Notes under the pieces: generated by a model
What the model saw: the letters and a program-made list of their open reading frames with translations, nothing else
Told to the model about the DNA's origin: nothing
Databases searched by the model: none
Shown: positions 2,886 to 28,514 of the stretch, piece after piece
How the letters are laid out: every line of letters starts with the position of its first letter
Numbering within the stretch: the stretch's first letter is position 1
Origin: Lottia gigantea
Lineage: Eukaryota
Direction of reading: 5' to 3'
NCBI RefSeq assembly: GCF_000327385.1
Contig: NW_008708401.1
Coordinates: 437,969-501,968, forward strand
DNA length: 64,000 nt
Made by a program: the position numbers and the translations under genes

Positions 2886-5800
2886 ATGTTTTATCAAATT
2901 TTGTTTCTTTTGGTTTCCTTAGCAACGTTTCAGGTAAGAGTTTATTTTATGCTCAAGCTTAATTTCTACCGTGAAAGTTCTTTCAGCATTCTGCGGAAAC
3001 TAATTTTATCATTTCGATAACAGTTGCAGAAATTTTCAGCGTTCAGAATATTTGTGCCCCTCTCCGACTTCACAATCTTTTACGTGTCGCAATTAAACTA
3101 TTTGATTGAAGAATGTCGTATTGAAAGATATTGATATTGGTCAAAAGTTTATTAGCTAATCGTAGTTATCATAATAATTTAAGTTGTGTTGTTTCTAATC
3201 GCAAGCACCCAATCTTGTATTTGAACGAATAATGAATCAGAGTTTTGTGGTCGGCATCCTCGCATGCAATTTCTATCAACATAATATATGTCTTTCAACG
3301 AATATTGCAACAGATTTGTGGTAGGCACCATGCGTAAAAATAGAGAAAATACAGGAAGTAAGTAGATATGATACTATTTGTTTTTTTCTTTCAGACCTTT
3401 CACGTGTCAGGTAAGTCACATATATATATATCAAATTTATTGGCATATTAACAATCTAGAATTATTAACAGAGTGTCATTATAGGCCTATGATCAATTTT
3501 CAACTCAAATGTACTCTACTTAAGCAAACTTGTAAAATATGATATTAATACAGATGTTTCTTGTGTTTAAGATACACAAACTCGGACATACTGTGTTTAA
3601 ATCCTACGATTGCATGACGACCCTAAAAGACGATGGTCATATTGTTGGTGGCTTAAGATGCCTACTGCTGCACCATACGTCTGTATACCCATGTACCTTA
3701 AAAAAAACTTGATAGAAATACTTGATATACGATGTATCAATTCTAATCTACGATATCTACGTTATTTACGATATTGGTATCTAAGCGGCTAAATGAAGGG
3801 CGTACACTGATGATCATATTGTAAGTCGCTAGAGATACCAACAGCCACACCAAACGTCTATATATCCCTGCACACATTAAATTTTGCTTTTCAGGAGCTC
3901 AAGTATGTGGTCGATCTGCAGATGTAGCTTTTGTCATTGATGCTTCCAGAAGTATCTACCCCCCGCACTTTAAAGATCAGTTAAATTTCATCAAGGACAT
4001 GGCTGATTCGTTCAATATTGGACCAGATCAAACCCAAATTGCAGCTGTAACATTCTCAGAAGGCTACCAAGAAGAATTTTTATTTAACACTTATAGCGAG
4101 AAGCCCTCAGTCATTCAGGCCATTAAGAACATAACATTCGCAATGGGAGGACGAACAGATACTGGAGAAGGTATCAAATTCGCCAGGAATGAAATCTTCG
4201 CGGCTAGGAACGGGGCTAGAGCCAATGTTCCACATATTATGATAGTCATCACTGACGGTAGATCTACGTATGGTGGGCTGACAGCCAGCGAAGCAGCTAA
4301 AGCTAGAAACGACGGAATCCTTATATTTGCCATTGGTGTTGGAGCAGCTGATGAGAATGAGCTGAACAACATCGCGTCCAAACCATCATCTGAATATGTC
4401 ACCAAAGTCACTGATTATACTAAATTGACTGGAATTCGAGAGAAGCTTGCTCTTCAAGCTTGTGAAGGTAGGTTGACGACTAACGGTTTCAGACATAAAC
4501 AGCACGTGAAGAAATAATTGAGACAATGAGGAGCTGCAGCTGAGGTAAAGCCAAGTAAACCATTCAAAACACTATTTTTGTCTTTCTATCTTTTATGCTT
4601 CACCTTTTAGCTTGATTTACGATGGATAGTTTAATTTGTTTGTGGTTCACTGCAATTCACTTCTGGTTGTGGAGCTCAGATCTTTTGGCGATGGACTTTT
4701 CTCAATTATATGTTCATATAAGTATTTGGTGTCAGGGTCTTGAGTTAAAAATACCCCATCCCCCATCCATGTTACCCACAATTCTTTTGTAAAGGATCTT
4801 TTGTTAGTTTATATGCTTTTTGTGGTAAAGGTTCTCTCTACTTCTTCATTTTGTATCACCTACTGTAGCTTTAACAACGACCCCTCTACCCACAACTACT
4901 ACAACTACCACCCCCGCACCGACTACTACCCCGGAGCCAGCCACAACAACAGAAGGTAAGGTTGGTTCTTCCAGTTCCTCGGTAACTATACATGGATATG
5001 ACTAGTTTATGACACTTGGCATCATACACGTAGAGGGACCTCACACGATAGCGATTACCAGATTCATAGGATTGCGAATTAGAATAGCGGTCATTAGTTT
5101 CGAACGCAACTCTCATTCAACTGATTTGTGAGTTGCGCTCGGAACTCATGACCTTTTTCATTATTCACAACCATACGCACCTGGTAATCGGTATGATGTG
5201 GAGGCACCTTTAGTTATCTATAATACAATGATGCAAAAGAAAGGGAATGGCCTTATGACACATAAAATTTTCTTGATGGTTTGGCGTGGGCCAACAAACG
5301 GAAATTATCTCCAAATTGTAAACAAAAGAGTTATATCAACTCCATATGTTGTAGACTCACTTCCATTTCTATTTCAGAAAAAATGCAGGGAGATCGACCC
5401 GATAAGGGTAAGTCATTATGTTCATCCTATTGTCTGGTCATTGAAATGATGGAATCGACGCCAGAGATGCCAAACAATAGTCACCCATCTTTCAGGGTAA
5501 AATCTACCCAATATTTGGCTTGCAGGCATTGAATATTCTTCTTAAAGGGATGGTGCGGCATTCTTTTTGACCAATCATACTTTACTCCCAGAAACGGGAA
5601 TATTTTAGCTAAGCCAATCAGTAATAGTGTTCACAGCTCACCGTCAGAATTTGAGCCTTCAAATCATGTGTGGCCAGAATTATCCGCGTTTGAATGTTGA
5701 AATGAAATAATAATGCTTCTGATTTTGTACAATATTTCTTTCATGTAGAATGTATTACTGGTAAAGATTCAGATGTTATTTTTGTGCTGGATGAATCCAG

Positions 5801-8207
5801 TAGTATTGATAACCGAGACTTTAAGAAGCAGTTGAAATTCGTCCAAGATGTCATCAAAATGTTTGATATTGGACCCAAAAAGACACAAATCGGTGTGGTA
5901 ACATTCAGCGATCTCCCCACCGTCGAGTTCTATCTTAATACTTATAAAAAGAAGAAGGATGTCTTGAAAGCAGTTGGCAGGGTCGTATATTCCGGTGGCA
6001 ACACATACACCAATCTGGCTCTAGAAACCGTCCGAGATAAACTACTGTCGCCACAAGCAGGTGCCCGTCCAGGTGTAGCTAAAATCATTGTAGTCATCAC
6101 CGATGGTGTGTCACGAATGCCTAAAAATACTGCAATGGTAGCTGAAGAAATCAAGAAACGTGGAGTTTATATGTTTGCTATTGGTAAGTGTTGTCTAGCG
6201 GCGAATGCACTGTTACACAGGCCTCGCGAAAATCAGTTTTATTTTCCAGCTAGATTAATGTTCTGCACTATAGTTTATTATAATGATTATAATTCTGATT
6301 CCCTAGTAATGTTAAAAAACAAATGATGAGGCATTTCGTTGAGTCTTGTTTCCATCGCACTAACATCTAAACGACTTAAGGGAGATCACTCGATTAATAA
6401 TCGTCGAATTTCTATCTTTATAGGTGTCGGTAAAGAATTCGACCAAGATGCCGAAGAACTTATTAACCTCGCCTCCTCTCCTAGTGAGAGTTTTGTTCAG
6501 ACTGTTAATGGTTATAATGCCTTGGGAACAATTAAGAATTTATTATCCATCAAAAAATGTAAAAGTAAGTATCATTATCAAGCAATTTCGTTGACAGAAA
6601 GTGGCTTAGAGTTTGATGGCTACGGAGATGTTGTGTTACGATTCGTTCAGATGTGTAATATAAATGGGTAATTATATATAAGGATATCTTGTAACTTTGG
6701 GTCATAGCTTAAATTAGCATTCTTACTGATTGTCGCGTTTCTAAGGCCTACTAAGTCGACTCAGGGCACAAAATTCTTGTACGTACCTGTAATTAGTAAG
6801 TGGAAATAGAAAATAGGAATTTTGCAAGTCACATGCCGAAGCAATTTTCTAATCGTCTTGACCAATTATATTGAATTATTCTCTATTATTCGACACTGTT
6901 AAAATAAGCCTGTAATTTAACATTAGAATTGTCTGACAACCATGTTGCCAGATAGTCTCCAAATTAGTTAATATTTTTAGAATTCCATATTATACTTCTA
7001 CGAATATAACGAAATATTTTTGTATTTTGTAGCTGGTGGTGGTGGAGGTGGAGGACAGGGTGATATTCACAGTAAGTATATTTTTACTCCGCATTTTTGA
7101 CAATCTTCTGAGGATGGGCTGTAACACAGTCGGTTAGAGTGTTGGAATCACAGGTCACAGGTTCTAATCTTGGTGAAAATTTAGTGAGCTTCCTTCATTG
7201 TTCCAGTAGACCCAGCTGTAAATGGGCGCAGATAATCTGGGAAAGATCAATGTTAAGAGGAAATTTTCCTCGTATCCTTGATTATTTTTTCCTTTTTTTC
7301 TTCCGTTTTTTCTTTCCCTATAATTTCTCACATGGATAAAACACTATTTATGATTTTAATTTTACTTTCATTTTATTATTTCAGCATCTTGTGGAAGTAG
7401 GTCACCAGCAGATGTCATGTTCGTTACTGATTTCAGTCAAGCTTCATCTCCAGGCGTTGCAAAATCTTTGAGAGTCATTGGAAATATTGCCAAAGGTTTG
7501 GATGTCGGGAGAGATAAGGTCCATGTTGGTTTGGTATCAAGTGACTGTCCCGAGGTCGGCGACGTTAACCCACTTCAATATTACGATGGCACCGGCTTCG
7601 CCATGGCTCTTACATCTAAAGAATCAGAGACACGGGTTTCCAAATTACTGTTCAGAGCAAGAGACGAATACTTAACTAGTAAATACGGTAGGAAGAATGC
7701 TAAACGAGTTATCGTTCTTTACACCAATGGACCAATTTCAGATTTTAGAGAAACGGCAAGGGAGATAATGCGAGCTGAACATCGTATCAATGATGTGAGA
7801 GTAATAGTGGTATCTGGTAGTCCAGCAGGTGATAAAGATGCTGCTAGACTACCATCTAGAATGAAGATTCTGTCCAAAGATCTTGGCAATGGACAATCAC
7901 TATTAAACCTAGTTTGTCAAGGTGAGTGTGCCAAGTTTTATGTTCTATATCTTCAACTACAAAAGAGAGAATCGTTGCGCTGCAACACATATGTTAAATC
8001 ATTTTGTTAGGATAATTTCATACACTTTTAGTAGAGAACATGATATTAAACCTCACTTACCCCAATAGAAAACTCGATTCTTGAATAACGACATACAACA
8101 GTCTTTATGTCGCCCACAATATTTAAGTTTAAGAAAATTCTGAATTAAAAAGTGTTTTTTTTAATAATATAAATGTTCTGTTCTCCGTTTCAGCTATCAG
8201 AGTTTAG
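2886..8207 (+). CDS. Secreted multi-VWA-domain protein, about 629 aa. Nine proposed exons: 2886-2933 (signal peptide MFYQILFLLVSLATFQ), 3395-3410 (16-nt micro-exon), 3895-4467 (VWA 1), 4869-4955 (Thr/Pro-rich linker), 5749-6183 plus 6424-6564 (VWA 2), 7033-7071 (poly-Gly micro-exon), 7385-7921 (divergent VWA 3), 8194-8207 (AIRV then stop).
   Basis: VWA hallmarks are read directly: DVAFVIDASRSI...ITDGRS...FAIGVG in exon 3 and DVIFVLDESSSI...VITDGVS...FAIGVG in exons 5-6. The third domain has a degenerate MIDAS (DFSQAS). All junctions are GT-AG. Every internal exon is phase 1-1 and the CDS totals 1890 nt, divisible by 3. AATAAA lies downstream near 8588. The 5' micro-exons and the tiny terminal exon are the least certain parts. 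Confidence 0.6.
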
Positions 8208-10310
8208 AAGAAAACATCCAAGAAAATCTACAATGTCGGCATTTTAAAGATCTCTCCTTCAGCAACACAAATACAGAGGAAATCTAGATTAGCAATGCAT
8301 TTATGGCAAAACAAACATCAGTCGCAGAAAATTGGCGAAATATAGATTCGAATCTAAGGGAAATCTACATAAACAGCATAATCTGCAACTTGGGGACATT
8401 TTTTCCATCATATTTATTGTAAAAGTTAAACAACTTTATAGATTTATGCCTCGTTTTCTCTTTTCCATGGACATATTTCATATGATATTAATGACGTTAT
8501 AAACTGTAATTGTATGAGGTATACAGAAGTAGAAGCCTGAGATAACTTATTTGTAAAGCCAAATCTTCTTCACTTATTTATTTTCTAATAAAGATTCTAG
8601 ATTTATGTTTTGTAAACTATTGTAGATATAATTTATTTTATTTATTTATTGTAAATATTTCTATCTTTGTGTAATAAAATTGTTGGATTTAGTTTTTATA
8701 TTTATAAACTGTGCTATCCCAGGGAAATGGTGAGGCTGACATGGAACACGCGTCTAGTCGTTCAGGTGAGACAATTGCCTGGAGATCCGACTCCAGGTGT
8801 TACAGACTAAAGATTCTTGACAGCCGGAGACTTTCTACTGGTACAGAAAAATAGGACATAAACTCCCGTTTATTAGAGAACGTTCTATCATAAAAAAAAT
8901 ATCCGCGAATTCGCTGGGCAATTAATGTGATAAGCAAGCCCATTGAGATTTGCGCAGACAAAACTAAGGTTTGGGTTCCATACGAAGATAAGGACAAGTG
9001 AATTAAGCACAATTATGTAGGTATCTTTGAGGCTATTTGAAAAACAGCTAAAATTATCATGATCATTCGGGTCCCGCATGACCTTTGTACCGGCCGAAGT
9101 ATTTTCTCAAGATTGTTTTGTTTACATTCTTAAAACAATAATATAGCAAAACCGTAAACAAAGTAGTGACCTTCATTAGACCAAAATGGGCGAAAATTAG
9201 CATTAACCCATTCTTATCAGATTCAAATTGGTTAAAGTGATAGATCAACATCATACACTGTGACAAAACTTTTCTATTTTTCACTATAGATATATGAAAT
9301 AAATTCTATGACGTTTTTCAGTCTACCCTTTGTCTACTTATGTTCTATTTCTACGTAATCATTAGACATGATTAAACAATACCGACCAGATAAAGGTATT
9401 TATGATGGAACAGCGTTTCTATTGTTGACTTTGCGAGAAAATTGACAACAGAACCCTGGTAGAACAGGGAACGAAAATCTACAATGGTAGACATTTTGGA
9501 AAATTTACATTGGTAGAACTTTAGAAAAGCTTTAGGAAAATCTACATTTGGAGAAGTTTAGGAAAATCCCACATAGATATAACATTAAGAAACCTTTAAG
9601 GAAATCTACATTGGTTGGTAGAACTGCAGAATTTCAACGGGAGTCTATTCATATTCAGTCTACTTTGTTCTATTTTTTTTTTAAATATAAAACAATAATT
9701 CTACATATAATTGAGAAAGGTCAGCTCGTTAGGTTAATAATTAGATGGCTTCTACCCTTTAATGCCTCGTGTGAAAACCTGTCAAAAATAATATCTACCC
9801 CAAAGGCATCATTTAATAGAAAGTCAAATGGTGATTTTACTTGTGTAAATTTATTAATTTTCCTAAATTTAAATCATGATTGGCGACCAGGTAGGCTATA
9901 AGATGACGTCAGTTGATTGATGGGTTTTAGATTCGAATGCGAGTATAAATTAACTGGTACAAAGAAAAAAAGCATTGACTCCAAAAACAAGGTAAGATCA
10001 ACATCTTCATATATTCATGCATTTTTATCTCATACTGCATCTCATCAAGCAATTTATCTATAGTAGGCTACAATTTCTATCAGAAGTTCGATTTTGTTTG
10101 ATGTCACGACTGACGACAGTAGTTTTTTGAAACAGAATGCATCGACATTCTGGTTGTTCTGACTGCATTTTTTTTAGCTATTCAGTGCTCATGCATCATC
10201 CAAGATAGTTTCCAGTCAACGAATTCCTCGAAGGATGTAAATGTTAAATAGTCCAGATCGATTTCTTACTTTTTAAATCTCGATCTTTTCTAAATATAAT
10301 CGCTTTTAGA

Positions 10311-10360
10311 TTAATTCTATTCTATTCTATTCTATTCTATTCTATTCTATTCTATTCTAC
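10311..10360 (+). repeat. (ATTCT)10 pentanucleotide microsatellite immediately upstream of the signal-peptide exon of the Met-rich gene.
   Basis: Ten perfect attct units, read directly from the sequence. Confidence 0.9.
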
Positions 10361-10362
10361 AG

Positions 10363-13300
10363 ATGAGAGGACTGGTATTTCTGTTAATTTCGCTGTGTGT
10401 CGTGGCTACATTGGCCCGGCCCAATTTAAAAAAGAGGCAGACATTAAAAGGTAATTGAATATTACTTTCAAAATTAGGTGCTTTCTGTATTAGCAATTGA
10501 AATACTTTCACCATAACGCTATCTGTATAGGAACCTAGAAATTATTGTATGCGTATTCAATATCATTTAATCCCAATGTGATATTTCACTGATTTGTCAT
10601 GTTCCTTTTGAGATTTTGACGACTGTATAGTATTAAAAGTAAATTCTTGAAACCATGTCCAAAAACTGCATTGCATTTGAAATCCAATGTAGTAATGATG
10701 TTTGTGAGTTTATGTGTGTGTGTGTCGCTAGTACGACAGGGCAAGCTCACACTTCTGGCTTCTGATACATCTGATGCCATTCCACGCTTAGGTTTGTCAA
10801 CTGGAGAGATTGAGAGAGATAGTCCACAGAGCCGCCGTGTGTCACCATGCGTTTTGGTATTGTGAACTTGGCAGTCTTTTCCAACAGAGAGTATACATAA
10901 CTCTGCTAGTGGAAAAGACTGTCCGTGAGGTTTGTTACTAGTAATTTTGTGGACAAGACTATCGCCATTCTGCGACTAATTGGGTTTAAAATCTAAGATC
11001 CAAGATCCTAGTCCAAAAAACGTAATTTAATTTCTGCTCAGCTTTTCCAATGATGAAATATAATTGTCATACGGTTTGCCACACAAAAAGTTTTCTGAAC
11101 ACGAACACGATTTGGTGTTTCTTCTAAAAGAAATGATTATAATTGTACTAAAAAGTGTGAAATTACATGTATATAGTTCAGTAAGAGGAGTGTACAGTAA
11201 TTAATCTCTGTTAATTATAATTAATTGATGATGTAAGATCGTGACCCCTCGGGGGCCATATCACCAATTATTGACCTCTACATACTTCTTTACTGAAATG
11301 TTGTATAACATAAAAAAATAACATCATTGCCATGTGCACACTCTAAAAGGAATATTAAATAGGCGAATTAGTGACCTTAACATACTTCTTTTCACTCATT
11401 TGCATTGCGATGTGCAGTCTATAAAAATGAATACATGTACATGTATTGAGTAAATGAATGTTTCCGGAAGTTACACAAGTTCTGAATCGGTAAAAGTGTG
11501 TTCTTTAGCAACAGATAGATGTGATAAACATCATAAAACGTTGCTAAAAGAACATGTACATTAACTACAAGCTATAATGTCTCTCTGAAAGGGTCCTTGA
11601 GTAGACAACCCCAGTGATATCAGGTGTTTCAGAAGGGTGCGTTTGCTATACCCTGCTAGCGAATACACTATAATAGTACAGGCTATAGATATATACATGT
11701 GAATAATTATCTCCTCCACCCAGACGACAATTTTGTCTGCAGTTATGATATTGATCATACTATAATTGAGACAAATATAAATTGTATTTTAGCAAATATC
11801 ATCTTCTTGGGTCAAGGTTTGTCAAATTTTTTAAAGAGAAGAATATTTTATCAGATTAGCAATAAGGTGCCACGGGGCAGTGGAAATGGTTTTATTGCTG
11901 AAGAGCACAAGGCTGTTTTGAAACAATTTAGGCAAATTGGCCTTTGATTGACCCCGTGTTGACCGTGTATTGTTTATTATGAATATTGATTTGTTGTTTA
12001 TTGATGATCATCTATAGTAAACAACTTAAAACATTCTACACACAAATCTAATTGGTCAACAAAAAATTGTTTGGGATTTCTAAAAAAATTAAATGTCTGA
12101 AAATGTTTAAAACATTTTAATTGGTGACATTGATTTACAGAAATGTTCAAGATTCCTAAAAAATTTTTAAAATGTCTCATCTTTTGTTTCAATCAAGTGG
12201 TTGGGTGGGGAACGGATGAGGATGTATCTTGTTCCCGAGTGAGAACTTGATTGAAAATAAATTTTCACCCAAACCTACACTCCTTTCTCATCCGATTGTA
12301 CTACATGTTTTCCATAGATCTACTTGTTCAGATTTCTACGGGGATGTTAACTCGACTCGCCCCCTCACCCAGTCATTCATTGAAACGCCACTGGTTAAAA
12401 ATTTTACTTTGTTATCTACATCAGAGAGTCTTTTCTTTTGATAATTTGAGTAAATCACAGGGCTGTGTATTCATATGCTTGATTTTTTTTTATTTCAGAC
12501 ATTGTAAAGAATGAATTAAACAGACAAAAAAGACAAATAACCAGAGGTAAGGAAATGGATTACGTCAAATCAACTAATTAAAATGACATTAGTAAACATA
12601 ACAATTCATAGAAGTAGTTGCTACTCAGAGAGTTACATGTCGGAGATTGCATTAGGACGTATATTTTGGATCCTAAAGGGGCACCTAGTTCGTGCGGTAC
12701 CTGTTTACTGCTTCTACCAATGGTAGTATATATCGAAAATGTTTGATTCTTTCAGGAAACTTAGTCAAAGATGGATCTGAAAGCGCAACTCAAAATGGTA
12801 AGTACAAGCTGAGTTCCAGAAAAGGATCAGGGTAACGGCATAGACAGGAGGATGAGGTATCTTCTCTCCAAAACATATGCAACCCTTGATTGAGGGAGAA
12901 GAATGGTTAAACAGCTTTGGCGGGAGGGTAGGGAATCGCCTCTTCAAAACGTCTGAAATTAGATTTCTTTATTGAGGGGAGGGGCTGATTAAATGACGAT
13001 GGTGATGATGATTCTTAACCAATTCCTTTAAAACGACACAGATTATTTGAGTAACTACTTTTATCATATTGTAAATTTCATTTTAGATTTTCTTCCAACA
13101 TCAGAAGCCGTTGTTTCTCCCCCAGAAACTGAGATTAAGCCAACGAGCGACCCTTCTGCATCTTCAGCTACTGACGTTCCTTTCCATTTACCACAGGACT
13201 TCAATGGTGAACCACTACATGCTGTAGAAAAGTCTCCATCGAACGTTTCTCCTTTCGGTCGAATGCCAGGACCCATGGGTGGTATGCCAGGACCAATGGG

Positions 13301-15541
13301 CGGTATGCCAGGACCAATGTCAGGACCAATGGGCGGTATGCCAGGACCAATGGGCGGTATGCCAGGACCAACGGGCGGTATGCCAGGACCAATGTCAGGA
13401 CCAATAGGCGGTATGCCAGGACCAATGTCGGGACCTATGGGTGGTATGCCAGGACCTATGGGTGGTATGCCAGGACCAATGGGGGGTATGCAAGGACCAA
13501 TGGGAGGTATGCCAGGACCAATGGGCGGTATGCCAGGACCAATGGGCGGTATGCCAGTACCAATGTCGGGACCAATGGGTGGTATGCCAGGACCAATGGG
13601 TGGTATGCCAGGACCAATGGGCGGTATGCCAGGACCAATGGTAGGTATGCCAGGACCAATGGGTGCAATGCCAGCTGATTTCCAAGGACCAAGTGGAGCA
13701 TGGGTTGATCAATCGAAATTGATGGCACAACAACAGCAAGGTGATATGGGTAAGATTCAGAATGCACAGAAGAAATTCATGGAGAAACTGATTGCTATTA
13801 AAACTGGAACCAATGGAACTGCTAATATGACTGACGAGGAGAAGAAGCAATTCTTGATGAAGGATGGTATGCCTCCAATGACACCTTGTAAGTATTAAAA
13901 ATTTCGTAGAAAGAAATAAGCAGCGTATCGTGAACTTTTATTATTGGAAGCATGTTCTCACTTTTTGTGGTATGCAGGCAGATGTGTCAGTTAGATTGTG
14001 TATTGATTTATTTGTGCTGTTTTCTATTTTCAGTACAATCAGCAGTAGGACATGAAGCTGAAATGGTTCAAAACATGATAGAATACGAGAAACAGTTAGC
14101 TCAAGCCCAACATTCTGTATTAAAACAATTTTATACTGACGTTTTAACAAGGTAGGTTCGCCATGCACACTCTTATGGAAAACCTGATGCCACTCTTTTA
14201 TTTTTGACAGTGGTTTCAAACTTAATCAACTACATATATTATCAGATGCATCAGCCGATCTGTTTTTAAAAGGGTCCATCTCCTCTCCTGTGCTTTGAAT
14301 ATTATTTTGAATAAAAATATTATGATTAAAAATAAATGTTAATGTTCCAAGCACGTTAAGGTAGCTTATTGGAGAAGTCAGATCGGCAGCTTATTGTATT
14401 ATATAATTGACTTATAAAAGAGCTTCGTATGCTGACAATACGCGTTTCGGATACAAGACCCTCACTAAGACAGAAGTTTTAGGAATAGAAGTTTAATTTC
14501 AATACAGGACAACAGATACCAGTAAAAATCTCTTATCCGTGCACAGTCCAAAAACAAAATAATGTACATAGTATTACAGAAAAAGTCAAAAGCAGTGGCT
14601 CAACATTATGTGTGGGGACCGTGGACATTTTTTTTTGCAACATATGCTGCTCTCCTATATTCTGAGACCTTGGTCGGGTTCTGGCATAAGTTGTGAACCA
14701 ATTTATATCATTGTTTGTTATCCTTTAGGATACTTACTTCGGTATATGTTTCTTTGATTTTGTATTTTGTTTTTGTGGTGGGAACGCATGGACTCGGTTC
14801 AACCAGTCCCTATGGCAGCTGATTCACTGGTCACAAGGAAAGGAACAACTGCAAAATTTCTTATTTTACACTTTGATACTTTTCAGCCGTGTTGTGAATA
14901 CCATGTTCAGAAAACGACTGGGAGAAGAGCTCCAAACATTGAAAGCTTTAAATAAAGAAGTTGAAAAAGCTCGAAAATCCATGGCTGGTATGCCTCAACA
15001 ACAACTTGGAGTAGTTCCTCAGCCAATGATGGGTGGTCCTCAAGGAATAATGATGGACCCAAGAGCTGCTATGATGAGTCAATCAGCTATGATGGGCCAA
15101 ATGGATCCTAGAGCCGCTATGATGGGCAAAATGGATCCTAGAGCCGCTATGATGGGCCTAATGGATCCTAGAGCAGCTATGATGGGCCAAATGGATCCAA
15201 GAGCTGCTATGATAAGTCAACCACCTATGATGGGCCAAATGGATCCAAGAGCGGCTATGATGGGCCCAATGGATCCAAGAGCAGCTATGATGGGCCAAAT
15301 GAACCCAAGAGCAGCTATGATGGGCCCAATGGATCCTAGAGCAGCTATGATGGGCCACATGGGCCCGAGAACAGCTATGATGAACCAGGGATCACCAATG
15401 ACAGACCCAAGAGCAGCAATGCAAATGCAAATGCAAAGAAGACAAATGATGGCTAGACGTCGAATGATGGCTGGAAAACAGGGAGCACCAGGTTCAGCAT
15501 TTGTTGGTAGATTAAGACAAACTATGCAGAAGAAGAAATAA
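10363..15541 (+). CDS. Secreted Met/Gly/Pro-rich tandem-repeat protein, about 553 aa in the minimal model. Exons: 10363-10450 (signal peptide MRGLVFLLISLCVVATLA, then RPNLKKRQTLK), [possible cassette micro-exons 12499-12546 and 12756-12797], 13087-13887 (about 24 MPGPMGG/MPGPMSGP heptad/octad repeats), 14034-14151 (helical spacer), 14887-15541 (about 11 MDPRAAMMG nonamer repeats, R/M-rich C-terminus, stop 15539-15541).
   Basis: The ORF-track entries 13047-13898 and 14873-15541 are joined by phase-consistent GT-AG junctions. The donors are phase 1 at 10450, phase 1 at 13887 and phase 2 at 14151; the matching acceptors are at 13085-13086, 14032-14033 and 14885-14886. Total CDS is 1662 nt. The signal-peptide exon has a classic h-region and ends in donor AAAG|GTAATT. 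AATAAA at 15817-15822. The exon 1 assignment rests on phase, since it is the only upstream signal-peptide exon with a phase-1 donor. Confidence 0.55.
13262..13675 (+). repeat. Coding tandem repeat array with a 21/24-nt period: ggtatgccaggaccaatgggc [tca gga cca atg].
   Basis: About 24 near-identical units encoding MPGPMGG / MPGPMSGPMGG. The periodicity creates long spurious ORFs on the opposite strand. Confidence 0.9.
15040..15365 (+). repeat. Coding tandem repeat array with a 27-nt period encoding MDPRAAMMG(Q/K/L/P), about 11 copies.
   Basis: Direct repeats atggatcc[ta]agagc[ac]gctatgatgggc[cac]aa read in the sequence. Confidence 0.9.
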
Positions 15542-15816
15542 GCAGGATAATAAATCATTAACTTTTAAAAGTCCCATTATGTTTAGCATCAAAGATGTAT
15601 GGAAATAATATTCTTATATTTATTAACTTATTGTTTTGGCATGCTCATACAGACAGTGTTGAACAACACAGCGAAAGAGAGAGCAAAACCTTTCAAATAT
15701 GACCATTAGAAACATTAGATATGAATATCAATTCCATGTATTTTGTAATCCTGTATCTATTGTCGTGTTATGTACTAGTAAGTCTTTAAAATACTCCATT
15801 GAATTTCTTTTGATAA

Positions 15817-15822
15817 AATAAA
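15817..15822 (+). other. AATAAA polyadenylation signal for the Met-rich repeat gene.
   Basis: Canonical hexamer about 275 nt downstream of the stop codon. Confidence 0.4.
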
Positions 15823-19342: not shown

Positions 19343-20090
19343 CACACCGCTAATATCTTAATGATGAGACATTTGACCTGGGACTAATTACACCACTAAT
19401 ATCTGAATGGTGAGACATTTGACCTGGGACTAATTACACCACTAATATCTGAATGGGGAGACATTTGACCTGGGACTAATTACACCACTAATATCTAAAT
19501 GGGGAGACATTTGACCTGGGACTAATAACACCACTAATATCTAAATGGGGAGACATTTGACCTGGGACTAATTACACCACTAATATCTGAATGGTGAGAC
19601 ATTTGACCTGGGACTAATTACACCACTAATATCTAAATGGGGAGACATTTGACCTGGGACTAATCACACCACTAATATCTAAATGGGGAGACATTTGACC
19701 TGGGAGTAATTACACCATTAATATCTAAATGGGGAGACATTTGACCTGGGACTAATTACACCACTAATATCTAAATGGGGAGACATTTGACCTGGGACTA
19801 ATCACACCACTAATATCTAAATGGGGATACATTTGACCTGGGAGTAATTACACCATTAATATCTAAATGGGGAGACATTTGAGCCTTTGACTAATTACAC
19901 CACTAATATCTGAATGGGGACACATTTGACCTGGGACTAATCACACCACTAATATCTGAATGGTGAGACATTTGACCTGGGACTAATCACACCACTAATA
20001 TCTAAATGGGGAGACATTTGACCTGGGACTAATTACACCACTAATATCTGAATGGTGAGACGTTTCACCTAGGACTAATTATACCACCAA
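19343..20090. repeat. Minisatellite of about 15 tandem copies of a 49-bp unit (acaccactaatatct[ga]aatgg[tg]gagacatttgacctgggactaatt), ending about 140 bp upstream of the IFIT-like coding exon.
   Basis: Head-to-tail units with only single-base variants, visible across 19343-20090. Confidence 0.9.
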
Positions 20091-20232: not shown

Positions 20233-23112
20233 ATGGAAAACGACGAAGAATATAAGACATTTATGAAAAAACTTGAAAACTTTCCAAATTATTTTCAAAT
20301 GAGAGCAGAAACTACGAATTCAAATCATTGGAAAAAATTGGAAAAAAAACTTAATGATGAAAAGGAGGACTTTGAAGAAATGAGTGCAATGGATAGATTT
20401 CGAAACTTAAACTTATTTGGCTGTGTTCAGTATTATCTTGGAGATATGGAATCTGCAGAGTCCTATTTTCAGAAAGTCTTAACAGAATCAGGTTTGACGA
20501 ACATCAATGCTAGTGCGATGATGGCAAACATGTATTACATTCAGGGAAATATAATAAAGTCTAAGGAAACTCTGGAGAAATTAAATGAATTGGCAAAAGA
20601 CCCTTACAAAATAGACATTGCCAAAGGTGAATTGTGTTATGCATGGTCAAGATTGGATCCAAAACATTACAAAAAGGGAATTGATGAATTAAAAAAACTT
20701 GTTTCCAAATATTCTGATAAACCAGAATATCCCATATGGGCTTTTGGTCTTGCTTTATTCTACAGAAGATGCCTTCATCTATCTGTCAAGTCTCTTCATC
20801 CTGATATTGACGTAAACCAATCTTTCAAAAGTGCCAAGGAATTGCTTGAGAACAATATACACAGCGATGATATTGAACCCATTTATAAAGCTCGGTCTTA
20901 TATAGAGCTAGCAGACTTATTAGCTTCAAAAAATATTCACTCTGATATTGAACTTCCTTCTAGTAGTGACATATATAACTACATTGTCAAAGGTGTTGAG
21001 CTGGCCCCAGAATGTGCTTCGGTTTTGATGAAGGCAGGGAAAGTAATGAAACACATTCGCAAATATAAAATATCTGAAGAATATCTTAAAAAGGCTAATG
21101 ATCTACGACCTAACTCTTTTAACTCTCATCAATTAGCATTGATCAAGATAAGTAACATCACACATGAAAAGTATCATAAGGGTGACCATAACAGACATTA
21201 TCATTATAACCCTAATTACCATGCTGGCAGGTTTCAAACACATACTTGTCCTCAAAAAAGTTACCAGGATGTACAGAAAAGATGTGGGGAAGGTTCTCGT
21301 AAGTGGTCGAATGGTAGAAATAAGCCAGCTTGGACAACAACAAACACTAGGTCTACTCCTACATCACACCGACAAGATCACAGGATCCCAGTTGTACAAC
21401 AATTATTCAAATCATGGGAAAGCTCTCCAACAGTCCAGCTTGATCAACAAACTGATGAGAGAGGTTGTTCTACTAATCCAGATCTGGAAGAAGATTGTGC
21501 TATTCAGGAGCGTTGTGCACCTTTTGATTTTGCACAGAGTTGTGGTAGTCCTATTTTAGAAGATAAAGTAGTCCCAGACTTCAAAAAGATGTCTTTAGAT
21601 GACTTAAAAACCACAGAAAAGTTCTATTCTGACAACACACAAACAAAACATTTATCAACAACTAATGACTCTGAATGTATTTTGAAGACTTGCGAACCAA
21701 AAGAAAAAGGAGCACAACCAAATAATGCACTGGGTCCGTCAATTCAACCAAGCAAAACTTTGGATCAACAACAAAAATTTCCCTTCAAATTTTCACCACA
21801 TGCTCCAGAATTTGTACCTTTGCAAGTTGAGAAAAAGATGACACCAATAAAGCCAACTTCAATGAAAACTGTTATGAAGTCGCCAAAATTTAGATCTCTG
21901 GGCTATCACAAATCCAGAAAACTTGAACCTTGTTTGGAGCTCCTGGAGAGATCAGTTTACTACAGTAAGAATACCAATTTTTCTGCTTATTATGACTGGG
22001 GACTACTATTACTACAGATGACTCCTCCAAATTTTGAAAAAGCGTTGAGTAAATTCATCTTCATTATAAGGCATGATAAGTCAATGAATGTACGATACAA
22101 AGCTTACGAGCAGGCTGGAATTTGTTGGATGAAGATGAGTGAAAATGTAGGTGAAAAAGATCAAGAAAATCATTGTAAGAATGCCTGCGAAATGTTTAAA
22201 AGAGCAATTCGATGCTGGGCTGATTGTAAAAGGATGAAATTACATGAATATTTTGATGACACTAAGAAGAATTGTTACTCGCTGTGCTCAATGCGGGAAA
22301 TGATTCTAGGAGATACTTCGAAACGCAACACCCAACAAAGGAAAGATTTGGCTCATATTTACTATCTGATAATGGAATATGGTCCTTCTTTGGAACTTTA
22401 TGAAGAGTTGAAAAGTAACCTTCAGCAACACTCAAATGGACACGACATTGAAGTCGTAAAAGGTATCATTAACAATCATCTAGAAATGAAACAGTTTAAT
22501 GGTGTTCTTGACTTATTATCAATATTCATATCTTCTGAAGAAGGTTTTGTTTGTCATGAATTCAAATATGAAGTTCTCAAGAAGATGATGGATTTTGCTA
22601 TTGTAAACAATGATCATACTTTAGCTGCATCAGTCATAGATTTTGATAAGGAGATCAACTTCTGTTATAATGTAATGATCTTGTACAACAAGGAGGATCC
22701 ATCATCAAAAGAATTAGGGAAATGTTTAGGTGGCTGGTTGGTTGACATTGGGTTGAAAATAACTCATAATATGGATGATGTTATTTTAGGGTGGCCCAAA
22801 TTGGATGGTCAGGGAATCATAATAGGAAGCAGTAGAATGGCCGTCTGTATAATTAATGATAACAATAAATGCGACTACTTACATTTCGCAATGGAAATGA
22901 CCCTAGATGACTTTCTTACAGATGGTAGGAAAATATTTCCATTATGTATCAATAATTCTAAACTAGCTAATCCTTTTAAACATTTGAAATCATTCTGTGT
23001 ATCTAATGAATCTCGATTTGACAAACAGAAGACCGATATACTCAAAGCATTCTGTGATATTTATTTGGCTTCCAGGAATTCACCTACTGAGCCTCAGATT
23101 GAAGCAAATTAA
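20233..23112 (+). CDS. Intronless coding exon of 959 aa for an IFIT-like TPR protein (interferon-induced protein with tetratricopeptide repeats), with a long extra C-terminal extension. The 5'UTR splice acceptor is at 20212-20213.
   Basis: Uninterrupted 2.9-kb ORF in an AT-rich genome. The N-terminal roughly 340 aa aligns by eye with vertebrate IFIT1/5 landmarks: RNLNLFGCVQYYLGDMESAESYFQKV versus WGNYAWVYYHMDQLEEAQKY; DIAKGELCYAWSRL...KKGIDELKKLV...DKPEYPIWAFGLALFYRR versus DCEKGWALLKFGG..YQKAKAAFEKALEVEPDNPEF..GYAITVYRL; RPNSFNSHQLAL versus TPTSSFLHHQMGL; HYHYNPNYHAGRFQTH versus IHYHYGRFQEFH. The similarity call comes from remembered IFIT sequences, not a database search. Confidence 0.6.
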   Translation: MENDEEYKTFMKKLENFPNYFQMRAETTNSNHWKKLEKKLNDEKEDFEEMSAMDRFRNLNLFGCVQYYLGDMESAESYFQKVLTESGLTNINASAMMANMYYIQGNIIKSKETLEKLNELAKDPYKIDIAKGELCYAWSRLDPKHYKKGIDELKKLVSKYSDKPEYPIWAFGLALFYRRCLHLSVKSLHPDIDVNQSFKSAKELLENNIHSDDIEPIYKARSYIELADLLASKNIHSDIELPSSSDIYNYIVKGVELAPECASVLMKAGKVMKHIRKYKISEEYLKKANDLRPNSFNSHQLALIKISNITHEKYHKGDHNRHYHYNPNYHAGRFQTHTCPQKSYQDVQKRCGEGSRKWSNGRNKPAWTTTNTRSTPTSHRQDHRIPVVQQLFKSWESSPTVQLDQQTDERGCSTNPDLEEDCAIQERCAPFDFAQSCGSPILEDKVVPDFKKMSLDDLKTTEKFYSDNTQTKHLSTTNDSECILKTCEPKEKGAQPNNALGPSIQPSKTLDQQQKFPFKFSPHAPEFVPLQVEKKMTPIKPTSMKTVMKSPKFRSLGYHKSRKLEPCLELLERSVYYSKNTNFSAYYDWGLLLLQMTPPNFEKALSKFIFIIRHDKSMNVRYKAYEQAGICWMKMSENVGEKDQENHCKNACEMFKRAIRCWADCKRMKLHEYFDDTKKNCYSLCSMREMILGDTSKRNTQQRKDLAHIYYLIMEYGPSLELYEELKSNLQQHSNGHDIEVVKGIINNHLEMKQFNGVLDLLSIFISSEEGFVCHEFKYEVLKKMMDFAIVNNDHTLAASVIDFDKEINFCYNVMILYNKEDPSSKELGKCLGGWLVDIGLKITHNMDDVILGWPKLDGQGIIIGSSRMAVCIINDNNKCDYLHFAMEMTLDDFLTDGRKIFPLCINNSKLANPFKHLKSFCVSNESRFDKQKTDILKAFCDIYLASRNSPTEPQIEAN

Positions 23113-27373: not shown

Positions 27374-28514
27374 TGTAATATCATATCATATCCAACAGAT
27401 AATTTCCTAAAAAATAAGTGATATTATTCATATTGACATTGGTAAGACTGACATTTTGCAAATTGTGGGGGATGGGGGAAAAGTGTTGAAAATCTGAAGG
27501 TATTATCTCGACCTATGTTTGGGCCATATATACATGTATATTTAAAAGATCAAATACATGATAAGAGTTAAGGGTATGCTTATTTTCTATATTCTTTAAT
27601 TGAATGCTATATTTTGAGATAGGGTTCAATCACAGTATAGGTCGAGATAATACCTCGATTTCCCCGTCAGTCATGCAGGTAAGAGGAGCTGTGCTCTGCA
27701 CGTTAAAGATCCCTCGACAGTTGGAAATCGAAAAAGAGCAGGCTAATGCCGCTGTCCTGGCAAAATTTCCCTCATTGAACACTGCATGGCATTGCCCGTC
27801 TTCATTAGCCCACATGGTGCAGAAAAGTAGGACGTAAAACTCCATTAATTTCATTTCATTTCTTATGGGAGGAACTTGTAAAGGGGGAGCACTGTAAGCC
27901 CTTCCTTGTATTTCACCTCACTCAGTCTGTATTCAGCAATCAGTGAATCAGTCATTCACAGAGAAAAACTGGCCATGATCGTATCCATTCATTCGCATTA
28001 GAAATATAGTAAAAGTGTAGATTTATGTCTATTCCTAGACGCAAGGTTATCTGCAACGTCTTCAATACACTTGCTGCAAGTGTCAATTGCATTAAGACCC
28101 TTTTATACCCACTTATACGTCCCTTACGGACGAAACTTGTTCTGCAGGTGCAGTCAATTGGTATAGCATAAAATGTTGATTTGGATTACCAGCATTTGCA
28201 GCAGTAATCGATTGCAAATAAGATGTTTGGTCTTATAGAAAGTATTAGGCCTATCTAATTATATTTTATGTAATTGAACTACATATTTGTAACAGATCGC
28301 TGTTATTTCAGTGAAAATAATATTTTTGTTAGTAGTCGAAATTTATCTTTTAGGCAAAACCTTTAATCCCACAATCCATTTGCCAAGATGTCAGCCCCCA
28401 TTAAAATGTAAACAAACACAGATTTGTGCAATATTTTAAAATATTTCAGTCAAACGTTTGAAGAATTTGGGAAGTTATGGTACAAATCCAATTGATTAGA
28501 TAGAATCAGCAATT

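What the first reader, a model, noticed from the sequence alone, without database searches (positions are those of the whole stretch)
10363..15541. Secreted Met-rich protein with two different tandem repeat arrays
Four phase-matched exons (or six, see the micro-exon finding) encode a signal peptide, then about 24 MPGPMGG/MPGPMSGP heptads, an amphipathic spacer, then about 11 MDPRAAMMG nonamers, and a basic R/M/Q-rich end. Methionine makes up roughly a quarter of the repeat blocks, which is very unusual. Loosely, it resembles Met/Gly-rich structural or biomineral-matrix proteins of invertebrates, but I cannot assign a homologue. The two arrays have different unit lengths and sequences and are joined by a phase-2 splice, so this looks like one gene rather than two neighbours.
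Basis: partly seen in the sequence, partly recalled or inferred. Interest (0 to 1): 0.8.

Follow-up and report, generated by a model that had tools for sequence, protein, structure and literature searches.

The report
Secreted methionine-rich bivalve repeat protein
This is very probably a real, lineage-specific gene in a pearl-oyster-like bivalve genome that encodes a secreted, mostly disordered protein with two different methionine-rich repeat blocks; similar proteins are already known from mollusc shell and hinge-ligament matrices, so it is a new example of a known kind.

Summary
Canonical GT..AG exons on the + strand give one open reading frame of 553 aa (4 exons) or 583 aa (6 exons). It runs: signal peptide, array 1, predicted-helical spacer, array 2, basic tail. 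Methionine is 27-28% of each array.

Corrections: array 1 has 17 units (13 of 7 aa, 4 of 11 aa), not about 24. Array 2 has a 10-aa period, not 9.

Evidence for coding:
- Differences among repeat units are 61% synonymous against about 21% expected.
- A codon-usage model trained on neighbouring genes favours the proposed frame in eight of the ten proposed coding segments (E1 and m1 near zero) and in no intron.
- Both micro-exons carry the best-scoring splice sites in the locus.

No homologue was found for the non-repeat parts in Pfam, the PDB, or exhaustive searches of billions of proteins. Hits matched only the heptad periodicity of array 1.

The neighbouring receptor genes are collinear with Pinctada imbricata at about 50-57% identity, so the host is a bivalve.

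Literature shows Met-rich repeat proteins (LMP, NU-5, MRNP34, abductin, abalone Met/Gln-rich proteins) are an established class of shell and ligament matrix proteins. My verdict is a new, orphan member of that compositional class. Expression, tissue and function are untested. Interest is modest.

The parts
9904..9950 (+). Candidate core promoter: palindromic CRE-like TGACGTCA (9904-9911) and TATAAAT (9944-9950). Inferred only.
   Evidence: Pattern positions and sequence. No functional test was possible.
9975..9991 (+). Candidate short non-coding first exon. The start is approximate, about 30 nt after the TATA box. It ends at donor AAG|gtaaga and contains no ATG.
   Evidence: The donor at 9991 ranks 2nd of 315 GT sites in 9900-15700. 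The ATG at 10363 sits directly after an acceptor-like ttctattctacag, which ranks 11th of 351.
10314..10359 (.). (ATTCT)9 microsatellite directly upstream of the start codon. It lies in the putative first intron or 5' UTR.
   Evidence: TRF reports period 5, 9.2 copies, 100% match.
10363..10450 (+). Coding exon E1. It encodes the start codon, the signal peptide MRGLVFLLISLCVVATLA (10363-10416), then RPNLKKRQTLK with a dibasic KKR. It ends in phase 1.
   Evidence: Translation and coordinates. The peptide has a charged n-region, a 14-residue hydrophobic core and T-L-A at -3..-1 (read from sequence; SignalP was not available).
12499..12546 (+). Micro-exon m1 (48 nt, phase-preserving). It encodes DIVKNELNRQKRQITR and contains an RQKR furin-type site.
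   Evidence: Its donor ranks 1st of 315 and its acceptor 4th of 351. It is in frame with no stop. The codon score is neutral but best in the proposed frame.
12756..12797 (+). Micro-exon m2 (42 nt, phase-preserving). It encodes GNLVKDGSESATQN.
   Evidence: Its acceptor ranks 3rd of 351 and its donor 4th of 315. The codon score is +0.47 in frame and negative in the other frames.
13087..13887 (+). Exon E2. It encodes the acidic/neutral N-terminal region, array 1 and the first part of the helical spacer. An in-frame alternative acceptor at 13126 would remove 13 aa (DFLPTSEAVVSPP).
   Evidence: Translation. The 13087 acceptor scores weakly (rank 95), whereas 13126 ranks 1st. Codon scores are positive in frame.
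13263..13673 (+). Array 1: 17 units of MPGPMGG (7 aa) or MPGPMSGPMGG (11 aa). It is uncharged, with Met 27%, Gly 38% and Pro 27%. It has a 138-nt higher-order repeat.
   Evidence: TRF, unit parse, composition, 13 of 18 unit differences synonymous, AlphaFold pLDDT 45-55 with no secondary structure.
13701..13862 (+). Predicted helices of the spacer within E2: WVDQSK...LIAIK and DEEKKQFLMK.
   Evidence: AlphaFold2 single-sequence run gives helices at E2 residues 208-238 (pLDDT up to 85) and 249-258. Coordinates.
14034..14151 (+). Exon E3 (118 nt, phase 1 in, phase 2 out). It encodes the middle of the helical spacer.
   Evidence: Its acceptor ranks 6th of 351 and its donor 3rd of 315. The codon score is +0.36 in frame.
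14887..15541 (+). Exon E4. It encodes the end of the helical spacer, array 2, the basic tail and the TAA stop.
   Evidence: Translation. The ORF opens at 14873, just before the acceptor. The first 33 residues are a confident helix that starts at the exon edge (pLDDT 87-90).
15053..15418 (+). Array 2: 11 units with an (M)DPRAAMMGx core. Eight are 10 aa, two are 16 aa, and the last units are degenerate. Met is 28%, with one Asp and one Arg per unit. It has a 138-nt higher-order repeat.
   Evidence: TRF period 30 nt, unit list and 10 of 20 differences synonymous against 18% expected, pLDDT about 45-53.
15419..15538 (+). Basic Met/Gln/Arg-rich C-terminal tail (MQMQMQRRQMMARRRMMAGKQGAPGSAFVGRLRQTMQKKK), calculated pI 12.
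   Evidence: Composition. Predicted helices at E4 residues 174-195 and 201-216. Its hydrophobic moment is not above shuffles.
15549..15554 (+). First AATAAA after the stop codon. It is a candidate polyadenylation signal. Others lie at 15817 and 15827.
   Evidence: Pattern positions.

Best explanation
This is a single protein-coding gene of a pteriomorph-like bivalve. It probably has 7 exons: a short non-coding exon, E1, two micro-exons, then E2 to E4.

The product is a secreted protein of about 56 kDa with calculated pI about 10 and no cysteine in the mature chain.

Inferred mechanism:
1. The signal peptide directs the protein into the secretory pathway.
2. A short N-terminal pro-region may be removed at KKR or RQKR.
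3. Two long, intrinsically disordered, Pro- and Gly-containing Met-rich blocks act as flexible, weakly hydrophobic, self-associating (elastomer-like) segments. One block is uncharged, (MPGPMGG)n. The other is zwitterionic, (MDPRAAMMGx)n.
4. A helical central region of about 150 aa and a strongly basic helical tail supply oligomerisation or docking sites for acidic matrix components, chitin or mineral.

The protein would thus work as an insoluble framework component of an extracellular matrix. The matrix is most likely shell or hinge ligament, and less likely byssus. This is how the Met-rich proteins LMP, NU-5 and MRNP34 of pearl oysters are thought to work.

Shown here: the gene structure signals, the coding constraint, the composition, the predicted disorder and helices, the lack of homologues and the bivalve origin. 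Inferred: secretion, processing, the matrix role and the tissue.
For: Gene reality:
- There is one ORF across canonical junctions.
- The donors of m1, the 5' exon, E3 and m2 rank 1st, 2nd, 3rd and 4th of 315 sites. The acceptors of m2, m1 and E3 rank 3rd, 4th and 6th of 351.
- Codon-usage log-odds are positive only in the proposed frame for E2, E3, E4, both arrays and m2. They are negative in all frames of the introns.
- 23 of 38 differences among repeat units are synonymous, against about 21% expected.

One gene:
- The E4 ORF opens 14 nt before its acceptor.
- E4's first in-frame Met (MFRKRLG...) has no signal peptide.
- A confident helix begins at the first residue of E4, which fits a helix continuing from E3.

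Architecture: both arrays have pLDDT 45-55 and no secondary structure, while the spacer and tail are helical. The mature protein has pI 10.05 and no Cys.

Host: the class C receptor genes at 43-55 kb are collinear, with the same spacing, with Pinctada imbricata contig VSWD01000013.1 at about 50-57% identity.

Known class:
- The insoluble fractions of Pinctada nacre, prisms and ligament are dominated by proteins with Met-rich regions. The NU-5 region is (MGPGPDMGG)n and LMP is (MMMKPD)n.
- LMP is a framework protein of the ligament.
- Abalone shell contains basic (pI 10-12), Met/Gln-rich secreted proteins with no homologues.
- M- and G-rich MRNP34 is found in nacre.

The adjacent upstream gene on the same strand encodes three VWA domains. 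That domain type is listed among shell matrix proteins.
Against: - No transcript, protein or tissue evidence could be obtained. The window's genome is not in the searchable collections.
- No homology links it to any characterised matrix protein. BLASTP against the NU-5 Met-rich region and against LMP is not significant. Class membership therefore rests on composition and architecture only.
- Identical or similar heptads occur in unrelated proteins. P0047 carries (MPGPMGG)n and Hsp70 tails carry GGMP repeats.
- The helices are not demonstrably amphipathic.
- The E2 acceptor at 13087 is weak and the N-terminal model is uncertain.
- The -3 position before the ATG is C, which is not optimal.
- Adjacency to a VWA gene may be coincidence. 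No other matrix-like genes lie in 15.6-43 kb.
Confidence: 0.6

Rival explanations
1. There are two products rather than one. The main transcript retains or terminates in the E3/E4 intron. That gives a secreted protein with array 1 only, ending ...QFYTDVLTR at TAG 14153-14155. Array 2 would then be a separate unit or an untranslated relic.
For: The in-frame TAG lies 2 nt into the intron. Two AATAAA motifs sit at 14310 and 14331 inside this 735-nt intron, against about 0.9 expected from the window-wide density.
Against: - The E3 donor ranks 3rd of 315 and is frame-compatible with the only acceptor that opens the array 2 ORF.
- Array 2 shows coding constraint: 10 of 20 differences are synonymous against 18% expected, and the codon score is +0.41 in frame. 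It has no signal peptide or promoter-like start of its own.
- The helix predicted at the very start of E4 looks like the continuation of a helix from E3.
- Two AATAAA motifs in an AT-rich intron are within chance.
Confidence: 0.1
2. The protein is secreted but is not a structural matrix protein. The dense MxxM, Mx3M and MM spacing could act as a thioether-based Cu(I)/Ag(I) binding or buffering surface, or as a sacrificial antioxidant in extrapallial fluid, mucus or haemolymph. It could also be a component of byssus, adhesive or egg coat.
For: MGGM (MxxM) recurs in every unit of array 1, and MMGxM in every unit of array 2. From established knowledge, Met-rich MxxM/MxM motifs bind Cu(I) in Ctr1, CusF, PcoC and CueO. 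The papers read here describe the function of M/G-rich domains in shell proteins as 'enigmatic'.
Against: - No His or Cys accompanies the Met residues.
- The arrays are long, Pro/Gly-rich and predicted disordered, like the framework proteins NU-5 and LMP.
- Documented bivalve Met-rich repeat proteins were recovered from insoluble matrix, not from fluids.
- Nothing here tests metal binding.
Confidence: 0.2
3. This is not a functional gene. Two coding-looking minisatellites expanded in non-coding DNA, and the open frames, splice-like sites and signal-like start are chance or relics (a pseudo-ORF).
For: - Tandem repeats keep several frames open. Antisense ORFs of 151, 113 and 103 aa overlap the arrays.
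- No homologue was found anywhere.
- Both arrays show recent higher-order (138-nt) duplication at 89-91% identity.
Against: - The non-repeat segments (N-terminal region, spacer, E3, pre-array part of E4, tail) also score as coding in one frame only, and both introns do not.
- There is a synonymous excess among units.
- Five or six frame-compatible junctions use the top-ranked splice sites of the locus.
- The start has a signal-peptide shape.
Confidence: 0.05

Closest known systems
LMP, ligament methionine-rich protein of Pinctada fucata (Suzuki et al. 2019; sequence in PMC7591529 Fig. S3)
   Same: Both have a signal peptide followed by a long tandem array of short Met-rich units, each containing Pro and one acidic plus one basic residue. 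LMP has MMMKPD and array 2 has MDPRAAMMGx. Both come from a bivalve. LMP is a framework protein of an elastic, partly mineralised matrix.
   Different: There is no significant sequence similarity. LMP is about half Met, with one hexamer array and almost nothing else. The window protein has two different arrays, a helical region of about 150 aa and a basic tail. Its location in ligament is untested.
NU-5 (nacre unknown protein 5) Met-rich region, Pinctada fucata
   Same: Both have an M/G/P-rich short tandem repeat: MGPGPDMGG in NU-5 and MPGPMGG in array 1. NU-5 was found in the detergent-insoluble nacre fraction. Its knock-down disturbs nacre tablets, and it has no BLAST homologues.
   Different: NU-5 is about 180 kDa and also has Glu-rich and Ser-rich regions. 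Each NU-5 unit carries an Asp, whereas array 1 is uncharged. BLASTP is not significant.
MRNP34, methionine-rich nacre protein of pearl oysters (Marie et al. 2012)
   Same: It is described as an M- and G-rich shell matrix protein of nacre whose domain function is 'enigmatic'.
   Different: I could not obtain the MRNP34 sequence here. The word-based and exhaustive protein searches returned nothing homologous beyond array 1, so close relatedness is unlikely. The size also differs (34 kDa against about 56 kDa).
Abductin, the rubber-like protein of the scallop hinge ligament (Cao, Wang and Bayley 1997)
   Same: It is a secreted bivalve protein made of short Gly/Met-rich repeats and is an elastomer. 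It is cited as a Met-rich precedent. This is a functional analogy for array 1.
   Different: From my own knowledge, abductin is about 136 aa, rich in Gly, Met and Phe, with GGFGGMGGGx decapeptides and no Pro. Array 1 has no Phe and 27% Pro. There is no evidence of homology.
Basic Met/Gln-rich shell proteins of abalone (ML5A7, ML6A10, ML8B1)
   Same: They have a signal peptide, pI 10-12, and Met- and Gln-rich regions. They have no similarity to other proteins and are recovered from shell matrix. The window protein has pI 10 and is 6.9% Gln, with QQQQ and MQMQMQ runs.
   Different: They are much smaller (11-25 kDa), contain 7-11% Met, and have no long regular arrays. They come from a gastropod.
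GGMP repeats at the C-terminus of Hsp70, and bacterial or other (MPGPMGG)n-type low-complexity tails
   Same: They share the same residues and heptad or tetrad periodicity. They were the only database hits.
   Different: The rest of those proteins is unrelated. The window protein has no Hsp70 or any other Pfam domain. This is convergent low complexity.

Membership tests
Met-rich insoluble framework proteins of bivalve shell and ligament (a compositional class: LMP, NU-5, MRNP34) | N-terminal secretion signal | tested here: met
   MRGLVFLLISLCVVATLA has a charged n-region, a 14-residue hydrophobic core and small residues at -3/-1. This was judged by rule, not by SignalP.
Met-rich insoluble framework proteins of bivalve shell and ligament (a compositional class: LMP, NU-5, MRNP34) | Long tandem array(s) of short Met-rich, Pro-containing units | tested here: met
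   There are two arrays, with 27.0% and 27.8% Met and periods of 7/11 aa and 10 aa.
Met-rich insoluble framework proteins of bivalve shell and ligament (a compositional class: LMP, NU-5, MRNP34) | Host is a shell-forming mollusc | tested here: met
   The best named relative of the neighbouring receptor gene is from Pinctada imbricata. The region is collinear at about 50-57% identity.
Met-rich insoluble framework proteins of bivalve shell and ligament (a compositional class: LMP, NU-5, MRNP34) | Sequence homology to a characterised member | tested here: not met
   BLASTP against the NU-5 Met-rich region gives E = 3.3, and against LMP E = 36. No homologue was found. Members of this class are not homologous to each other either, so this feature does not define the class.
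Met-rich insoluble framework proteins of bivalve shell and ligament (a compositional class: LMP, NU-5, MRNP34) | Physical presence in the insoluble matrix of shell or ligament, and expression in mantle | not testable with these tools
   No transcriptome or proteome of the source species is available. Exact look-ups of window proteins were negative.
Abductin | Gly/Met/Phe-rich GGFGGMGGGx decapeptide repeats in a small protein of about 136 aa | tested here: not met
   The arrays contain no Phe. Array 1 has 27% Pro and a 7/11-aa period, and the protein is 553-583 aa. The abductin motif is taken from my own knowledge of Cao et al. 1997.
Collagen-like triple-helix proteins | Gly at every third residue (G-X-Y)n | tested here: not met
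   In MPGPMGG, Gly sits at positions 3, 6 and 7 of a 7-residue period. There is no Pfam Collagen hit.
Hsp70 (GGMP-repeat tails) | Hsp70 ATPase and substrate-binding domains (PF00012) | tested here: not met
   Pfam finds no family in the 583-aa protein. The Hsp70 hits align only to array 1.
Cu(I)-binding Met-motif proteins (Ctr1 Mets motifs, CusF/PcoC/CueO-type) | MxxM or MxM motifs | tested here: met
   MGGM occurs in each unit of array 1 and MGxM in each unit of array 2. This is trivially satisfied by any Met-rich repeat.
Cu(I)-binding Met-motif proteins (Ctr1 Mets motifs, CusF/PcoC/CueO-type) | Demonstrated Cu(I)/Ag(I) binding, or homology to a known copper protein fold | tested here: not met
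   No Pfam or PDB relative was found. Binding itself cannot be tested here.

The most novel reading that the evidence does not exclude
The protein founds an unrecognised family of di-block methionine elastomers. It would have an uncharged (MPGPMGG)n block and a zwitterionic (MDPRAAMMGx)n block, held together by a helical oligomerisation domain. Its mechanical state or solubility would be switched by reversible methionine oxidation, or by Cu(I) binding, in the extracellular space of a bivalve. This would be a hinge-ligament or byssal rubber distinct from abductin and LMP.
Probability: 0.12. Interest if true: 0.6.

Novelty: new member of a known kind. Interest (0 to 1): 0.3.

Why it matters
If the gene is expressed as modelled, it adds a well-defined example to the poorly understood Met-rich matrix proteins of molluscs. 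The papers read here still call the role of these domains enigmatic. The protein is compact. Its two chemically contrasting Met-rich arrays are separated by a predicted helical domain. That layout suits recombinant tests of what Met/Pro/Gly repeats do, such as elasticity, self-assembly, oxidation-dependent cross-linking and mineral or chitin binding.

It also shows how such genes escape annotation and proteomics:
- It has no homologues.
- Two micro-exons affect the N-terminus.
- Array 1 falls within a single 152-residue tryptic peptide, so trypsin-based shell proteomes would miss half of the protein.

It does not reveal a new kind of system.

Tried and rejected
- **Full-length homologue search.** It returned only low-complexity matches: Hsp70 GGMP tails, a desaturase-domain protein and a protist ORF.
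- **Search with the 157-aa non-repeat centre.** No hit.
- **Exhaustive HMMER search of 1.84 billion representatives with exon E2.** It gave 234 hits, all confined to array 1. I inspected 44 of them and they are unrelated proteins with 7-residue periodic repeats. I rejected them as homologues.
- **Pfam and PDB sequence search.** Nothing.
- **Exact look-ups.** The four spliced isoforms and three window ORFs are absent from the collection, so the source species could not be named.
- I therefore used single exons.
- **Literature search for the peptide motifs MPGPMGG, DPRAAMMG and others.** No paper.
- **BLASTP against the NU-5 Met-rich region and LMP.** Not significant.
- **Hydrophobic-moment test of the 'amphipathic' helices.** Not above shuffles.
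- **tblastn for paralogues in the window, and for orthologues in the two related loci I could fetch.** None. The fetched Pinctada locus stops about 27 kb short of where an orthologue would lie, and I could not extend it.
- **Other readings considered and rejected.** I rejected collagen because of the wrong Gly spacing. I rejected a neuropeptide or prohormone precursor because the repeat units are not flanked by dibasic sites. I rejected fusion with the upstream VWA gene because that gene has its own AATAAA signals at 8587/8673, and E1 starts with a signal peptide.

Full report
**What is in the sequence**

All have GT/AG boundaries with pyrimidine-rich acceptors. They join into a 1662-nt ORF of 553 aa that ends at TAA 15539-15541.

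The two micro-exons have corrected coordinates 12499-12546 (48 nt) and 12756-12797 (42 nt). Both preserve phase, and together they extend the product to 583 aa.

In 4-exon numbering, the protein reads as follows:
- a signal-peptide-like start, MRGLVFLLISLCVVATLA
- a 70-aa Ser/Pro/Thr-rich region with no Met
- array 1
- about 155 aa of ordinary sequence
- array 2
- a 40-aa tail with calculated pI 12

The mature chain is about 56 kDa with calculated pI about 10 and no cysteine. It is 17% Met, 15% Gly and 13% Pro.

**The arrays**

Tandem Repeats Finder reports array 1 at 13263-13674, with period 21 nt and a 33-nt variant. It reports array 2 at 15053-15382 with period 30 nt.

Parsed in frame, array 1 has 17 units: 13 of 7 aa (MPGPMGG and variants) and 4 of 11 aa (MPGPMSGPMGG). 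Array 2 has 11 DPRAAM-type cores: eight 10-aa units (MDPRAAMMGx), two 16-aa units and a degenerate end.

Its '11 units' and 'about a quarter methionine' (27.0% and 27.8%) are right. Both arrays also have a 138-nt higher-order repeat at 89-91% identity, which indicates recent block duplication.

**Is it a gene or a repeat artefact?**

Three independent sequence tests favour a gene.

1. *Synonymous changes among units.* Among unit-to-consensus differences, 23 of 38 are synonymous, against 18-24% expected for random single-base changes. Units share ancestry, so the p-values of 1e-3 to 1e-2 are optimistic.

2. *Codon usage.* I trained a codon-usage log-odds model on the neighbouring VWA, TPR and receptor exons.
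   - It scores +0.27 to +0.47 per codon in the proposed frame for the N-terminal region, array 1, the spacer, E3, the pre-array part of E4, array 2, the tail and micro-exon m2. It scores negative in the other two frames.
   - Both large introns are negative in all frames.
   - E1 and m1 are short and score near zero.

3. *Splice-site strength.* I ran a simple splice-site weight-matrix scan of 9900-15700.
   - The donors of m1, E3 and m2 rank 1st, 3rd and 4th of 315 GT sites.
   - The acceptors of m2, m1 and E3 rank 3rd, 4th and 6th of 351 AG sites.
   - The micro-exons are therefore better supported by splice signals than some main exons. I prefer the 6-coding-exon model.
   - The 13087 acceptor is weak (rank 95). 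An in-frame acceptor at 13126 is the best in the locus. Using it would delete 13 aa, and only RNA data can decide between them.

**Upstream of the reported start**

The ATG at 10363 follows an acceptor-like ttctattctacag. The second-best donor of the locus lies at 9991 (AAG|gtaaga). It is preceded by TATAAAT at 9944 and a palindromic TGACGTCA at 9904.

I infer a short non-coding first exon and a TATA/CRE-type promoter there. This is not shown. The upstream three-VWA-domain gene has its own AATAAA signals at 8587 and 8673, so the two genes are separate. An AATAAA lies 8 nt after the stop codon.

**One gene or two?**

If the E3/E4 intron is retained, the frame stops at TAG 14153-14155. Two AATAAA motifs lie in that intron, against about 0.9 expected. 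A truncated isoform is therefore conceivable.

The following points argue against two genes:
- The array 2 ORF opens only 14 nt upstream of its acceptor.
- Its first in-frame Met has no signal peptide.
- The E3 donor is very strong and frame-compatible.
- AlphaFold2 predicts a confident helix (pLDDT 87-90) that starts at the first residue of E4, as if continuing from E3.

I put the one-gene model at roughly 0.85.

**Structure prediction**

Single-sequence AlphaFold2 on E2 and E4 gives pLDDT 45-55 and no secondary structure for both arrays. I read this as disorder. It gives helices for the spacer (E2 residues 208-238 and 249-258, E4 residues 2-33) and for the tail (174-195 and 201-216).

The maximum hydrophobic moments of these helices do not exceed those of shuffled sequences. 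'Helical' is therefore supported, but 'amphipathic' is not.

**Homology**

- Pfam finds nothing.
- The PDB sequence search finds nothing.
- The word-indexed search of 5.8 billion proteins with the full protein returns only low-complexity matches such as Hsp70 GGMP tails. With the 157-aa non-repeat centre it returns nothing.
- An exhaustive HMMER scan of 1.84 billion cluster representatives with exon E2 gives 234 hits. Every alignment is confined to array 1. The 44 proteins I inspected are unrelated sequences with 7-residue periodic repeats. One of them, P0047, carries (MPGPMGG)n on an unrelated body.
- There is no paralogue in the window.

The gene is an orphan at current sensitivity. One caveat applies: the source genome and its closest relatives are poorly represented, since exact look-ups were negative.

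**Host and neighbourhood**

The 550-aa receptor exon at 51238-52890 has its best named match in Pinctada imbricata at 56% identity.

The fetched Pinctada locus is collinear with window 43.3-54.6 kb, exon by exon and with the same spacing, at about 50-57% identity. An unnamed ENA contig behaves the same way. The host is therefore a bivalve. It is closer to pearl oysters than to the other annotated bivalves, but it is not Pinctada imbricata itself.

The upstream neighbour on the same strand encodes three VWA domains and a Thr/Pro-rich linker. Nothing matrix-like lies between 15.6 and 43 kb.

**Comparison with what is known**

- Kintsu et al. 2020 (PMC7591529) digested the detergent-insoluble matrices of Pinctada fucata nacre, prisms and hinge ligament. 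They found that most of the proteins share Met-rich regions.
- Their supplement shows the NU-5 repeat (MGPGPDMGG)n and LMP as (MMMKPD)n. These resemble array 1 and array 2 respectively in composition and unit design.
- They propose that Met-rich proteins form the insoluble scaffold together with chitin and VWA proteins.
- LMP is described as a framework protein of the ligament with a spiral conformation.
- Abalone shell contains secreted, basic (pI 10-12), Met/Gln-rich proteins without homologues.
- MRNP34 is an M/G-rich nacre protein whose domain function is called enigmatic.
- BLASTP of the window protein against the NU-5 region and against LMP is not significant.

The protein therefore belongs to a compositional and architectural class, not to a homology family. 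Members of that class are not homologous to one another either.

**Most likely mechanism (inferred)**

- The protein is secreted.
- A short pro-region may be removed at KKR or RQKR.
- The two disordered Met/Pro/Gly blocks provide flexible, self-associating, possibly oxidation-sensitive segments, analogous to Pro-Gly elastomers and to LMP and NU-5.
- The helical centre and the basic tail provide oligomerisation and docking to acidic matrix components, chitin or mineral.

My probabilities are about 0.6 for 'secreted structural matrix protein'. Within that, roughly two-thirds goes to shell or ligament and one-third to byssus or another secretion. Rivals are a non-structural secreted Met-rich protein for metal binding or antioxidant use (0.2), two products or a truncated main isoform (0.1), and a pseudo-ORF (0.05).

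**Verdict**

Gene structure, secretion signal, orphan status and resemblance to mollusc matrix proteins hold up. Function and tissue are untested, and the rarity claim is overstated for bivalves.

The novelty rating is 'new member of a known kind'. Interest is modest at 0.3. The protein is a neat, experimentally tractable two-array example of a class whose chemistry is still unexplained, but it would not surprise a specialist in molluscan biomineralisation.

Noticed in passing
window 3825-8200 (+): The upstream neighbour on the same strand encodes three VWA domains (exons about 3825-4514, 5706-6323 and 7360-7922). It also has a Thr/Pro-rich, mucin-like linker at 4829-5002, and AATAAA signals at 8587 and 8673. 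VWA proteins are listed among shell and byssus matrix proteins, so the pairing with the Met-rich gene may or may not be meaningful.
   Followed up: partly
window 43283-55613 (+) and 62947-63780 (-); loci L001, L002: This is a cluster of class C GPCR genes (ANF_receptor plus 7tm_3) with several ligand-binding-domain exons in tandem. It is collinear, with the same spacing, with Pinctada imbricata VSWD01000013.1 and with an unnamed ENA contig at about 50-57% identity. The last 7tm_3 exon is on the opposite strand in the window but on the same strand in the Pinctada locus.
   Followed up: partly
window 19344-20087: A 46-bp satellite with 16 copies at 93% identity lies immediately upstream of the 959-aa ORF.
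   Followed up: no
window 20233-23112 (+): An intronless 959-aa ORF has only weak TPR matches near its N-terminus. No exact copy is in the protein collection. It could be a lineage-specific or retro-copied gene.
   Followed up: partly
window 184-1848 (+): A 554-aa Ser-rich ORF has no Pfam match. It contains a 225-nt tandem duplication at 1130-1538. It may be a large exon of another low-complexity protein that starts outside the window.
   Followed up: no
window 13390-13674 and 15053-15351: Both Met-rich arrays independently have a higher-order repeat of exactly 138 nt (5 x 21 + 33 in array 1, and 3 x 30 + 48 in array 2) at 89-91% identity. This is probably coincidence, but it shows that both arrays grew recently by block duplication.
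   Followed up: partly
protein P0047: An unrelated 263-aa protein in the public collection starts with eight perfect MPGPMGG heptads. This is the same unit as array 1, on a completely different body, which is an example of convergent low-complexity sequence.
   Followed up: no
window 28500-33898 (+): Several exons (for example ...YKCKYFVLPCCHFDFNCKF... and a CCCH-like ...CWFNEHHPDGCPQLAVNCKYAHG...) look, from memory, like a TRMT44-type tRNA methyltransferase. That would be a housekeeping gene between the Met-rich gene and the receptor cluster. I did not test this.
   Followed up: no
window 10429-10437 and 12522-12533: The end of E1 (LKKRQTLK) and micro-exon m1 (NRQKRQITR) encode similar basic motifs. 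The micro-exon may have arisen by duplication of the 3' part of E1. Both motifs are candidate proprotein-convertase sites.
   Followed up: no
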